From IMG/VR virus record IMGVR_UViG_2526164630_000028: DNA of 17,246 nucleotides, one strand, 5' to 3'. The first letter of the stretch is position 1, and every line of letters starts with the position of its first letter. The stretch comes from a virus (Duplodnaviria > Heunggongvirae > Uroviricota > Caudoviricetes). Position numbers: made by a program. Of this stretch, positions 13,542-16,500 are shown piece after piece.

Positions 13542-16500
13542 TGACAAGAAGCACAGGTATTAACAATAACTTTCATGGTGATACGAATCAGTGGCTAAAA
13601 AAGGCGACTTTAAGCCTACCCAGAAAGAGGTTGACCAAGCTATTACTCGCTTGAAAAAAGTAACTTTTAGCGGAGTTACATGGACCGGAAGTGAGGGACG
13701 AACCCCAATCTGGTTTAAATTGGATCTCAAAGCTTTTGATGAAATTGGCAACCCAATCACAGGCATAAAATTTATGCTTCACTGGCGTCCTCCTATCGTT
13801 GAAGGGGTGGATATAGTGAAGATTTCATTTGTGATGTTTCTTCATGACAGGCGCATTTACGCGCTTGACCCGTACCCTGCGGATAACAAGCCACACCGTA
13901 ATAAATCTATAGTGAACCATCCAGATTTTGTTGAGGTGGCTCGAGGTCCTCACTATCACATGTACTTCGAATCAGCTGGGGAAGAAATTGCACTTAAGCT
14001 TGAAACGAACATCAAGCCAGATGATTTTTTTGGCTACTGGAATTATTTTTGCGAGGCGCTTAATATCATATATGAAGGCAGCCCACCTTTACCTAATCAA
14101 GATAAATCAGGTCAGCTATCATGGGAAATGTAACGTGTTCAACAGTCATATCTAAGCTCGGGTTTGAATGCCACCCAATGAGCGACACGTTGCTGCGCGT
14201 TATTAGTCCCTTCACATACTACGATGATTGTGAGCAGATAAGTGTATTCGTTCAAGAGATGAGTGGTCAGTATAGGGTTACAGACTACTGCGATACATTG
14301 ATGAATATTGAATCACGCGGCATCCACCTGACTAAAAAGAAAATTGATCTAATCAGGTCATCGCTCGCTTCGCAAGGAATTTCATTAAATGACTCTGGAG
14401 AGATATCTGCGTGGGCAGATGAGTCGTCCGTTGGACAGGTAACTGCAAATGTTATTCGTGGTGGGATTCTTGCATCCGCCCAAACTGCTGATTGGTATGC
14501 TGAGATCAAAGACGATAAGTTCGAAAAATGTGTAATCAGCTACTTAAAATCAGCAGGGCTTGGGAAGCGACTAGCTTTAAAGGAAAAAGTGAAAGGTATT
14601 AGTGGGCATAACATTACTGTTCCGTTAACGCTAAGGAATGAGTCTCGACTAATACCACCAAAACGCGGGTTTACGGTAAGCCTTGCCAGCAGTAAGGGAT
14701 GGAATACTGCCCACTCAACAGTTGGGAAGATTGTTGACTTAAGTCAGGTCGTTCCTGACATAAACAATAGATTTGTAATAGTTGACAGCGATGGGTTAAC
14801 ACCTGAGCTACAGCAACTATCACTACTATTTAATGATACCGCACGAGTGTTGCCATTCCATACCAGAGACTCTTGGATTGAGTCTCTGGTAGCCTAGAAA
14901 AACCCGGCCACCGAGCCGGGTTTTCTTTGCCTCACGATCCCCACACCTAATAACACCATAACCAATTGTATTTATTGAAAAATTGATAGATACAACTTGC
15001 TAAACAGTGCAATTCTGATCCCTCGCCTACCAAACAATGCCCCCCTGCAAAAAAATAAATCCATATAAAAAACATACAGATAACCATCTGCGGTGATAAA
15101 TTATCTCTGGCGGTGTTGACACATATACCACTAGCGGTGATACTAAACACATCAGCAGGACGCTGGCAGCCAAACGGAACAGATTGGCAGGCTCTTTAAC
15201 TTCGATGGTGCGCTGACAAAGCGCGAACAGATACCAAACGAGATGGATTTGGCAGTGATGTGAATTGCAGCTGCAACGACAGCAACCAGAAGATCAGCAT
15301 CTTGCGCATCACCACCAAAGCCATTTCACATGAGGAAAACATCATGACGGTAATCGTGTACGGAAAATCAACATTTGCAGGAAATGCCAAAACTCGCCGT
15401 CATGAGCGGCGCAGAAAGCTGGCCATCGAGCGTGATTCCATCTGCAACATCATCGATTCGATCTTCGGCACAGACAGTGAGGAACCTGTTCAGGAAGATC
15501 CGAGAAAGCATTTAAATCTTTCTGAAAAAGCAATATCACTCAGCAACATTCGTAACCAAAATACCGATGAATGCAGTGGAAGTATTTGTCTTCCAAATGT
15601 AGCTCTTTACGCGGCAGGCTACAGGAAATCAAAACAACTGACAGCAAGGTGACTTGTGTTGGTCGCCAGAAAATGAAATTAGGCAGCAAACCACTTATTT
15701 GAGGTGATATATGGAAGAACAAGCAAACAAGATTCTCGTAGAACTACTGCAAAAAGCCAGTAATGGAATAGACGCGGCTGTTTCATTTAGCCAGGCACAG
15801 ATTCCTGATGTTGTTCATCAGTTGCTGCTATGGAATATGGTTGACAGTCTGATTAAAACATTAATGGCCATTCTAACAATCCCACTGGTTTTCTGGTTTA
15901 TGAAGAAGCAGTGCCAAAGAGTTGAGACAGGTAAAATCGGTGATGAAGGATATTCATGGGAGAAAGGAAATCCCAAATACAGGCCGACAATGGTTTGGGA
16001 TAGCAAAGGTGATATTAATCTTCTTATCATGCCATTGGTTGGAGTTTTGACTCTGTGGGGGATTTTTATTATTGGTGTAGTAACCAATATGACTTGGTTA
16101 AAAATTTGGCTGGCCCCAAAGCTTTACCTTATCGAATATGCAGCATCATTGGTTAAGTAATTTCAGGCCGCATAGTCGGCCTTTATTTTTGGCATAAACA
16201 ACAGAATAAACACTGCACTGTGTTTTCATTCCAACGAGTGAATACACGGAGCAATGTCGCTCGTAACTAAACAGGAGCCGACTTGTTCTGATTATTGGAA
16301 ATCTTCTTTGCCCTCTAATGTGAGGGCGGTTTTTTTCTGTGAGGATATGAACAGATGTCAAACATCAAAAAATACATCATTGATTACGACTGGAAAGCAT
16401 CAATAGAAATTGAAATCGACCATGACGTAATGACAGAGGAAAAACTTCACCAGATTAATAATTTCTGGTCAGACTCTGAATACCGACTCAATAAACACGG

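What the first reader, a model, noticed from the sequence alone, without database searches (positions are those of the whole stretch)
13591..14897. Unrecognised two-gene cassette in the rexA/rexB slot between cI and oL/PL
In lambda the order is cI-rexA-rexB-terminator-oL/PL-N, and rexAB are co-transcribed with cI from PRM in the lysogen and exclude other phages. Here cI, oL/PL and the intergenic DNA are lambda-like, but the intervening slot holds two overlapping ORFs of 180 and 258 aa that resemble neither RexA nor RexB. Neither has hydrophobic helices (RexB is a polytopic membrane protein), and no nuclease, NTPase or other catalytic motif is visible by eye. Gene A can only start at a GTG and the genes overlap by 13 nt, which suggests translational coupling. 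Position, operon context and the dedicated terminator make this the best candidate in the window for an undescribed prophage-encoded anti-phage (abortive-infection or exclusion) system.
Basis: partly seen in the sequence, partly recalled or inferred. Interest (0 to 1): 0.85.

Follow-up and report, generated by a model that had tools for sequence, protein, structure and literature searches.

The report
Unvalidated prophage defence-candidate gene pair
In the place where phage lambda carries its rexAB exclusion genes, this E. coli prophage carries a conserved pair of soluble proteins of unknown function. The pair travels with the repressor gene of many different temperate phages and is a good, computationally flagged but untested, candidate for an anti-phage system.

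Summary
Between lambda-type cI (12832-13544) and oL/PL (15083-15144) lie gene A (13591-14133, GTG start, 180 aa) and gene B (14121-14897, 258 aa). They overlap by 13 nt and are followed at once by a strong terminator.

The genes are real and under purifying selection. In 90 of 91 loci examined, A sits directly upstream of B. The pair lies behind at least ten unrelated repressor families, from E. coli to Pseudomonas and Helicobacter (pro)phages.

The pair is not wholly unrecognised:
- B is Pfam DUF1828 plus a DUF1829-type domain with a restriction-endonuclease-like fold, but without the canonical catalytic triad.
- A belongs to a small family with an invariant GxHxH motif and a conserved C-terminal tail.
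- Both match, weakly, the two components of PADLOC's unvalidated candidate PDC-M24.
- A 250-aa E. coli DUF1828 protein, probably the ~50%-identical ev207-type B, is listed as "predicted novel defense gene" in DefensePredictor (2026) but was not tested there.

The cI-to-N slot is already described as a defence hotspot (RexAB, BstA, HigBAC). Defence is therefore the best-supported reading (about 0.55), and the mechanism is inferred only. In this window cI is frameshifted and cII is split by an IS element, so local expression is doubtful.

The parts
12798..12825 (+). PRM promoter hexamers (TAGATA ... TAGATT) just upstream of the leaderless cI start
   Evidence: Read directly from the sequence. 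That it matches lambda PRM rests on my own knowledge. PR lies on the opposite strand at 12784-12756.
12832..13544 (+). Lambda-type cI repressor gene, first gene of the operon; frameshifted in this window
   Evidence: The ORFs 12832-13005 and 12951-13544 are two frames of one gene. The A-run at 12902-12907 is A6 here and A7 in E. coli O103:H2 strain 129, where cI is an intact 237-aa CDS.
13577..13581 (+). GGTGA Shine-Dalgarno sequence, 9 nt upstream of the GTG start of gene A
   Evidence: Sequence. The same upstream sequence is present in O104:H4 and LST200A.
13591..14133 (+). Gene A: 180-aa soluble protein of a DUF6978-related family; invariant R88 and G119-x-H121-x-H123; conserved C-terminal GQxxW/L tail; non-ATG start
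   Evidence: ORF. phrog_2017, E 7.5e-74. DUF6978 at 23.6 bits, below the cut-off of 29.6. PDC-M24A at E 3.7e-4. Only 22 cluster representatives among 1.84 billion proteins. Alignments. hhalign against distant partners gives 99.6%. The start codon is GTG or TTG in 88 of the 90 loci that carry A.
14121..14897 (+). Gene B: 258-aa soluble protein. N-terminal DUF1828 domain (type III secretion chaperone / YbjN-like fold) plus a C-terminal DUF1829-type restriction-endonuclease-like domain with non-canonical conserved residues (S161, H163, D206)
14121..14133 (+). 13-nt overlap of A's last codons with B's first codons (translational coupling); 4 nt in the other subfamily
14898..14928 (+). Intrinsic terminator directly after B's stop codon, closing the cI-A-B unit
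   Evidence: RNA fold: dG -20.1 kcal/mol, z -4.72, followed by UUUUCUUU.
15083..15144 (+). oL3-oL2-oL1 operators and the PL promoter, the downstream boundary of the slot
   Evidence: Sequence. TTGACA/GATACT with a 17-nt spacer.
15344..15652 (+). Antiterminator N (P22 gp24-like), first gene of the PL operon
   Evidence: RefSeq annotation of the collinear strain 129 locus; ORF.

Best explanation
A and B form a lysogen-expressed, cytoplasmic two-protein anti-phage cassette that rides in the repressor operon, as rexAB does in lambda.

Shown:
- The transcription unit reads PRM-cI-A-B-terminator.
- A and B are translationally coupled, and A almost always has a weak non-ATG start.
- The two genes are inherited as an inseparable pair and are swapped as a unit between prophages with unrelated repressors.
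- B has a protein-binding-type N-domain (type III secretion chaperone / YbjN-like fold) fused to a restriction-endonuclease-fold domain (DUF1829 type).

Inferred:
- B is the sensor-effector.
- A is a small beta-rich protein with a probable metal site (GxHxH, with H102/N104/D93) and an invariant, disordered C-terminal tail. It binds B, plausibly through that tail in the chaperone-like domain, and either holds B in check or acts with it.
- On infection by another phage the complex is triggered and acts on nucleic acid, either aborting the infection or destroying the invading genome.
- Because the canonical D...(D/E)xK residues are replaced by S-G-H...D, the chemistry may differ from that of a standard nuclease. 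The domain may also only bind DNA.
For: - Architecture.
- Pair linkage: A lies directly upstream of B in 90 of 91 loci.
- Neighbour: the gene upstream of A falls into 14 clusters below 50% identity, and most are HTH plus Peptidase_S24 or short HTH repressors.
- Same position in Erwinia, Yersinia and Klebsiella prophages, in phage ev207, and in Pseudomonas, Burkholderia and Helicobacter (pro)phages.
- The same allele sits behind three different repressors in E. coli.
- In other E. coli the slot holds rexAB, NYN/PIN, KilA-N and other cargo.
- The slot is a published defence hotspot holding validated RexAB, BstA and HigBAC (PMC8585504).
- Both proteins hit both components of one PADLOC candidate system. 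Distant relatives hit PDC-M24B over its full length, at E down to 4.5e-13.
- A 250-aa E. coli DUF1828/DUF1829 protein, probably the ev207-type B homologue, scores 5.6-6.3 log-odds in DefensePredictor, above the strict cut-off of 4.
- Pfam files DUF1829 in the PDDEXK clan (Table S5 of PMC13092281).
- Purifying selection.
- Both proteins are soluble.
Against: - No experiment on this pair or any close homologue was found. Searches for DUF1828, DUF6978, PDC-M24, the Pfam accessions and the WP accessions returned nothing relevant.
- PDC-M24 is itself unvalidated. The matches of the window proteins to it are weak and partial.
- DefensePredictor's overall validation rate was 45%, and this gene was not among the 94 units tested.
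- B lacks the canonical catalytic triad. Foldseek against the PDB found nothing significant.
- The one validated DUF1829-bearing protein, DS-6B of HipAD, is thought to be an antitoxin and DNA binder, not a nuclease.
- The model of A is poor (pLDDT 58.5) and has no structural neighbours.
- The A-B contact is not tested.
- In this window cI is frameshifted and cII is split, so the usual promoters may be weak here.
Confidence: 0.55

Rival explanations
1. The pair is a toxin-antitoxin-like addiction module. Its main role is to stabilise the prophage or the immunity region, with one protein toxic and the other neutralising it. Any phage defence would be secondary.
For: - Two small, coupled, co-inherited genes, with conserved control of the first gene's translation through a non-ATG start.
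- The validated DUF1829-bearing DS-6B is proposed to be an antitoxin.
- A toxin-antitoxin-chaperone system (HigBAC) occupies the same slot in another lambdoid prophage.
Against: - No similarity to any known toxin or antitoxin family in Pfam, NCBIfam or PADLOC.
- At 180 and 258 aa, both proteins are large for a classical type II pair.
- Many toxin-antitoxin systems in this slot are defence systems anyway, so this rival overlaps with the main explanation.
Confidence: 0.15
2. The pair modulates the phage's own lysis-lysogeny switch or induction, acting with or on the repressor, as has been reported for lambda RexA. It would not act against other phages.
For: - The linkage to the repressor gene is strict across very distant phages.
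- RexA is reported to influence the bistable switch (as summarised in PMC12894663).
Against: - The same allele works with three unrelated repressors, and the family with at least ten. This argues against a specific partnership with any one repressor or operator set.
- Many lambdoid phages do without the pair: only 61 of 5426 complete E. coli genomes carry this allele.
Confidence: 0.1
3. The pair is a lysogenic-conversion cargo with a host-directed function unrelated to phages, such as stress tolerance, DNA repair or virulence modulation.
For: - The pair occurs in pathogenic lineages (O103:H2, O104:H4, an Stx1a phage).
- bstA, at the same position, was linked to virulence phenotypes before its defence role was found (PMC8585504).
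- A nuclease-like fold is compatible with a repair function.
Against: - Distribution follows temperate phages of many hosts, including Helicobacter and Burkholderia, rather than a pathotype.
- There are no secretion signals or membrane segments.
Confidence: 0.1

Closest known systems
Lambda RexAB (prophage abortive-infection / exclusion pair)
   Same: - Same slot: after cI, before the terminator and oL/PL.
- Same strand and presumably the same PRM transcript.
- Two genes expressed in the lysogen.
   Different: - No sequence or profile similarity.
- RexB is a polytopic membrane protein, whereas both A and B are soluble. A membrane-depolarisation mechanism is therefore unlikely.
PADLOC candidate system PDC-M24 (Pfam DUF6978 plus DUF1828/DUF1829), unvalidated
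   Same: - Two adjacent co-directional genes of about 150-180 and 250-260 aa, in the same order.
- A hits PDC-M24A and DUF6978; B hits PDC-M24B and DUF1828.
- Distant relatives of the pair hit PDC-M24B over its full length.
   Different: - The window proteins match only part of each model: A residues 98-160 at E 3.7e-4, B residues 5-112 at E 6e-7.
- A is below Pfam's DUF6978 cut-off.
- The enterobacterial branch is therefore a divergent sub-family that PADLOC would probably not call.
- That PDC-M systems come from untested or unconfirmed candidates of Millman et al. 2022 is from my memory. I found no DUF1828 entry in that preprint's supplements.
BstA (prophage BTP1) and HigBAC (E. coli NT1F31): validated defence systems in the same repressor-downstream slot
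   Same: - Encoded directly downstream of the prophage repressor and presumably sharing its promoter.
- Associated with prophages of diverse Gram-negative hosts (PMC8585504).
   Different: - Unrelated proteins. BstA is a single protein and HigBAC is a toxin-antitoxin-chaperone trio.
- No KilA-N, HigB/HigA or SecB hits in A or B.
DS-6/HipAD of DefensePredictor (DS-6B = DUF3037 + DUF1829)
   Same: It is the only validated defence system I found with a DUF1829-type domain. It is also a two-gene unit.
   Different: - The partner is a HipA kinase, not an A-like protein.
- DS-6B has DUF3037, not DUF1828, and its DUF1829 match is weak (HHpred probability 0.78).
- It is not an orthologue.
CARF/SAVED-type sensor-nuclease fusions such as Can2 and Card1
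   Different: - B's N-domain is chaperone/YbjN-like, not CARF.
- No cyclase or CRISPR context.
- The catalytic triad is not conserved.

Membership tests
RexAB | Sequence or profile homology to RexA and RexB | tested here: not met
   No Rex family among the Pfam, NCBIfam or PADLOC hits at E up to 1.
RexAB | Second component is a polytopic inner-membrane protein | tested here: not met
   The highest 19-residue hydropathy mean is 1.22 for A and 0.79 for B. The B model is a two-domain soluble alpha/beta protein.
RexAB | Located between cI and oL/PL, co-directional with cI, closed by a terminator | tested here: met
Pfam DUF1828 (PF08861) | Score above the gathering cut-off | tested here: met
   B scores 40.9 bits against a cut-off of 22, over residues 30-112.
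Pfam DUF1829 (PF08862, clan PDDEXK) | HMM match to the C-terminal domain | tested here: inconclusive
   The window protein has no direct hit. It does align at 99.7% hhalign probability over residues 3-223 with homologues that pass DUF1829 (23.4 and 29.1 bits against a cut-off of 22.2). HHpred gives 98.8% for a 250-aa E. coli DUF1828 protein that is probably the ev207-type homologue (Table S5 of PMC13092281).
PD-(D/E)xK nucleases | Restriction-endonuclease-like alpha-beta-beta-beta-alpha-beta core | tested here: met
PD-(D/E)xK nucleases | Conserved catalytic D ... (D/E)-x-K residues | tested here: not met
   Family-wide invariants in this domain are G159, S161, H163 and D206. H163 sits at the start of the second strand, where the canonical Asp is expected from the strand order (my reading of the DSSP assignment, not a residue-level superposition). 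The third strand (181-187) carries no conserved acid or lysine.
Pfam DUF6978 (PF22398) | Score above the gathering cut-off | tested here: not met
   A scores 23.6 bits against a cut-off of 29.6, over residues 98-159 only. Five of 16 family members give comparably weak hits.
PADLOC PDC-M24 (candidate system) | Both component HMMs matched by adjacent co-directional genes | tested here: inconclusive
   Both are matched, but weakly and in part: A at E 3.7e-4, B at E 6e-7. More distant relatives give full-length B matches, at E down to 4.5e-13. PADLOC's own thresholds were not run.
PADLOC PDC-M24 (candidate system) | Demonstrated anti-phage activity | not testable with these tools
   It is a candidate class. 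No paper mentions PDC-M24.
Type II toxin-antitoxin | One product toxic, neutralised by the other | not testable with these tools
   This needs expression experiments. There are no toxin or antitoxin family hits.

The most novel reading that the evidence does not exclude
The DUF6978-like / DUF1828-DUF1829 pair is a mechanistically new, ancient class of temperate-phage immunity. A chaperone-fold sensor is fused to a catalytically re-wired restriction-endonuclease-fold domain and is controlled by a small HxH metalloprotein through its invariant C-terminal tail. Its near-obligate residence in the repressor operon, from epsilon- to gamma-proteobacterial phages, reflects a functional tie to lysogeny, for example self/non-self discrimination between the resident prophage and incoming relatives, in the way that aba gives BstA-encoding prophages self-immunity to their own BstA.
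Probability: 0.2. Interest if true: 0.75.

Novelty: new variant of a known kind. Interest (0 to 1): 0.5.

Why it matters
If the pair defends, it adds a widespread and mechanistically unassigned system to the set of prophage immunity genes. It is found in E. coli (including O104:H4 outbreak strains and O103:H2), Klebsiella, Salmonella, Yersinia, Enterobacter and Aeromonas, with distant versions in Pseudomonas, Burkholderia and Helicobacter phages.

It would also give function to three Pfam DUFs and turn a PADLOC/DefensePredictor candidate into a validated family. It would matter for choosing phages against these pathogens. The strict repressor linkage and the conserved weak start codon of A provide testable regulatory hypotheses.

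The general idea that the cI-to-N slot holds exchangeable defence cargo is already established, so the gain is a new occupant and possibly new chemistry, not a new principle.

Tried and rejected
- Sequence-profile searches of both families against PDB sequences found nothing. The only 'hit' was a His-tag artefact.
- Reading A's H102-x-N104 ... H121-x-H123 as an HNH / His-Me finger or a cupin motif: rejected. The spacing and predicted strand positions do not fit, and E127 is not conserved in the wider family.
- NCBIfam gave no hits.
- Literature searches for DUF1828, DUF6978, PDC-M24, the Pfam accessions and the WP accessions found nothing relevant in main texts. There were no entries in the supplements of Millman 2022 (preprint) or Vassallo 2022. 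The NAR 2026 paper has no supplements held. Brenes & Laub 2025 and Millman 2022 (journal version) are not held.
A2 was used instead, so the IMG/VR survey is biased towards enterobacterial relatives.
- dN/dS between genera could not be computed because dS is saturated. Codon counts and close alleles were used instead.
- I first assumed the window was collinear with strain 129 throughout. It is not: only 12516-17246 and the IS element match. The statement 'O/P/Q deleted' applies to strain 129, not to this window.
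Full report
**1. What is there**

The + strand of the window corresponds to lambda's leftward direction. The features, in order, are:
- cro at 12531-12731 on the minus strand, with PR at 12784-12756.
- The PRM hexamers TAGATA/TAGATT at 12798-12825, and the leaderless cI start at 12832.
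- cI, ending at 13544.
- A 46-nt spacer containing GGTGA.
- Gene A, from GTG 13591 to 14133 (180 aa).
- Gene B, from ATG 14121 to 14897 (258 aa).
- A hairpin followed by UUUUCUUU at 14898-14928 (dG -20.1 kcal/mol, z -4.7).
- oL3, oL2 and oL1 with PL at 15083-15144.
- A P22 gp24-type N gene at 15344-15652.

**2. Are the genes real?**

Yes.
- The exact proteins occur on 219 contigs (A) and 283 contigs (B) in public data. They are always named 'hypothetical' or 'DUF1828 domain-containing'.
- The ~98%-identical allele is present in 61 of 5426 complete E. coli genomes, including the O104:H4 outbreak lineage.
- Against that allele, A differs by 2 synonymous and 1 non-synonymous codon, and B by 5 and 1.
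- Between genera, synonymous sites are saturated while dN stays at 0.15-0.3.
- Both proteins are soluble and mildly acidic.

**3. What the proteins are**

Gene B:
- It passes Pfam DUF1828 (40.9 bits, residues 30-112).
- It is phrog_1960, of unknown function.
- Its AlphaFold model is usable (pLDDT 82).
  - The C-terminal half resembles restriction-endonuclease-fold domains: the Can2 nuclease domain (10.4), BstEII (9.4), NgoMIV (9.3), PspGI (9.2), AF1548, XisH, VC1899 and NucS.
- Foldseek gave nothing significant, although Card1 and SpcU had the highest probabilities.
- Distant homologues that align with B end to end (hhalign 99.7%, E 1e-25) pass Pfam DUF1829. Pfam files DUF1829 in the PDDEXK clan (HHpred table in PMC13092281).
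- The canonical D...(D/E)xK residues are absent. Across the whole family the invariant residues are C6, C17, D36, D55, D58, G93-E94-I95, G159, S161, H163 and D206.
- I therefore call the C-terminal domain nuclease-like in fold and unproven in chemistry.

Gene A:
- It is phrog_2017.
- It matches DUF6978 only below the cut-off (23.6 against 29.6 bits).
- Its family is small, with 22 cluster representatives among 1.84 billion proteins at E up to 1e-3.
- Conserved features are R88 and G119-x-H121-x-H123, and usually D93 and H102-x-N104. The C-terminal tail GQxx(W/L)(E/L) is also conserved and is modelled as disordered.
- Its model is poor, and no fold could be assigned.

**4. Context survey**

This is the most informative result.

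The pair sits immediately after the repressor, on the same strand, in the following (pro)phages:

| Host or phage | Repressor upstream | Notes |
|---|---|---|
| Erwinia prophage | S24 repressor | |
| Yersinia prophage | S24 repressor | One extra gene interposed |
| Klebsiella Rac-like prophage | 128-aa HTH repressor | |
| Phages ev207/ev017, PhiR63_2/PhiR57_1 and an Stx1a phage | cI-type | A 40% and B 50% identical to the window proteins |
| Pseudomonas phage phPA-G | CI-like | A-like ORF is unannotated |
| Helicobacter prophage | HTH regulator | |

Burkholderia phage phi644-2 also carries the pair (gp48 plus gp47), but its upstream genes are unannotated, so no repressor was identified there.

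In 80 IMG/VR loci plus the reference loci (91 in all):
- 90 have an A-type ORF directly upstream of B.
- The gene upstream of A falls into 14 clusters below 50% identity.
- Pfam, run on ten representatives, shows most of these to be HTH plus Peptidase_S24 or short HTH repressors.

In E. coli the same ~98%-identical allele lies behind lambda cI (O104:H4), behind a different LexA-family repressor (LST200A), and behind a third S24 repressor (JNEC-KY174). Other E. coli prophages with lambda-type cI carry rexAB, NYN/PIN, KilA-N or other unknown genes in the slot. The pair therefore behaves as an exchangeable cargo module of the repressor operon.

Gene A starts with GTG or TTG in 88 of the 90 loci that carry it, although many of those loci are close relatives. 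The overlap with B is 13 nt in one subfamily and 4 nt in the other.

**5. Relation to what is known**

[quoted passage not shown] It holds rexAB in lambda and the validated abortive-infection gene bstA in BTP1 (PMC8585504).
- A RexAB-type pair sits downstream of a Cro/CI repressor in a Pseudomonas putida prophage (PMC12894663).
- PADLOC: A and B hit, weakly and in part, the two components of the candidate system PDC-M24 (E 3.7e-4 and 6e-7). More distant relatives hit PDC-M24B over its full length. I found no paper on PDC-M24.
- DefensePredictor (Science 2026, PMC13092281):
  - It lists 250-aa E. coli DUF1828/DUF1829 proteins WP_000968518.1 and WP_000968517.1 as 'predicted novel defense gene', with log-odds 5.6-6.3 against a strict cut-off of 4.
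  - These are probably the ev207-type variant. I could not check this by sequence.
  - The accession is absent from the table of 94 tested units.
  - The overall validation rate was 45%.
  - Their validated DUF1829-bearing protein, DS-6B of HipAD, is a different protein, proposed to be an antitoxin and DNA binder.
- I found no experimental test of this pair.

**6. Mechanism**

Shown:
- The operon layout and the coupling of the two genes.
- Co-inheritance and modular exchange.
- Solubility of both proteins.
- The two-domain fold of B.

Inferred:
- The pair is expressed with the repressor in lysogens.
- A and B form a complex. A's invariant tail and B's chaperone-type domain are the obvious candidates for the contact.
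- The complex senses infection and acts on nucleic acid through B's nuclease-fold domain, or through a metal site in A.

I put about 0.55 on 'anti-phage defence' and about 0.3 on the specific sensor-plus-nuclease reading. The rivals are a toxin-antitoxin-type stabiliser, a modulator of the phage's own switch, and non-phage lysogenic conversion. They are set out with their tests in the rivals section.

**7. Local caveat**

In this window cI carries a 1-nt deletion in an A-run. It is A6 at 12902-12907, against A7 in strain 129, where cI is intact.

An IS3-family element (11155-12464) sits inside cII. The 5' part of cII and the cro-cII intergenic region are missing.

If the frameshift is real and not a homopolymer sequencing error, CI cannot activate PRM, and Cro would repress it. 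A-B may then be poorly expressed in this strain, even though both ORFs are intact.

**8. Verdict**

The finding is real and well described. The defence interpretation is reasonable and is strengthened by the survey, but it remains unproven.

The claim of novelty has to be reduced. The slot concept is published, B is a recognised DUF, and relatives of the pair are already on two computational candidate lists. What remains open and worthwhile is the experimental validation and the mechanism of a widespread, repressor-linked protein pair with a non-canonical nuclease-fold domain.

Noticed in passing
window 12902-12907 (within cI, 12832-13544): cI is frameshifted by a 1-nt deletion in a homopolymer (A6 here; A7 in E. 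coli O103:H2 strain 129, where cI is an intact 237-aa CDS). This is either a decaying repressor in a crippled prophage or a homopolymer sequencing error.
   Followed up: partly
window 11155-12464 (IS); cII 3' end at about 11154-11070 on the minus strand: An IS3-family element (orfA 11209-11535, orfB 11535-12422; two 98.9% copies and one 95.6% copy in the 33.6-kb strain 129 locus L002) is inserted in cII. Compared with strain 129, 331 nt holding the 5' part of cII and the cro-cII intergenic region are replaced by 51 nt. The PR operon is probably blocked, which would make loss of cI tolerable.
   Followed up: partly
window 13591; L001 2950; L003 5441; L004 5468; L006 5468; 80 IMG/VR loci: Gene A starts with GTG or TTG in 88 of the 90 loci that carry it, and with ATG in only 2. 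The weak start codon is conserved across subfamilies that are only about 40% identical. This suggests selection for low or tightly coupled expression of A.
   Followed up: partly
L009 2920-3504 (Pseudomonas phage VB_PaD_phPA-G, PP083311.1 about 14449-15033): An unannotated ORF overlaps the DUF1828 gene by 4 nt and belongs to the gene A family (NKVGVGLPFY ... HPHLH ... YGYAEPL ... GQ tail). The GenBank record shows an empty gap there.
   Followed up: yes
L012 (O104:H4), L013 (LST200A), L015 (JNEC-KY174): The identical cassette proteins WP_001074607.1 and WP_000528776.1 lie behind three different repressors. In JNEC-KY174 the match begins only about 30 nt before the end of the repressor gene, which places the upstream recombination junction near there.
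   Followed up: partly
L062-L066 (upstream ORF at 383-724 in L062); L004 4895-5377; L009 2180-2830: Some prophages carry a further small gene between the repressor and the A-B pair. It is a DUF3024 protein, a 160-aa unknown, or a protein matching the PADLOC candidate PDC-S48 (E 3e-6). The slot can therefore stack cargo.
   Followed up: no
window 15711-16160 (+): A 149-aa ORF directly after N has hydrophobic stretches that look like membrane segments. It has no Pfam or PADLOC hit and is annotated as hypothetical in strain 129. It may be another exclusion-type gene.
   Followed up: partly
window 5101-5991 and 6045-6641 (+): Two adjacent ORFs (296 and 198 aa) lie in a very AT-rich stretch (GC 0.29-0.38). 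They are antisense to the rightward phage operon and have no Pfam or PADLOC hit. This is a second unknown two-gene cargo in the window.
   Followed up: partly
window 1600-2559 (+): A gene for an LpxR-family outer-membrane protein (lipid A deacylase family, Pfam E 8e-40) lies in AT-rich DNA next to antiterminator Q (435-1208, minus strand). It looks like a lysogenic-conversion gene in the late-regulatory region.
   Followed up: partly
window 4009-4656 (-): An HNH_3 endonuclease with a weak AP2-type domain lies in the nin region. It resembles a homing-endonuclease-like insert.
   Followed up: no
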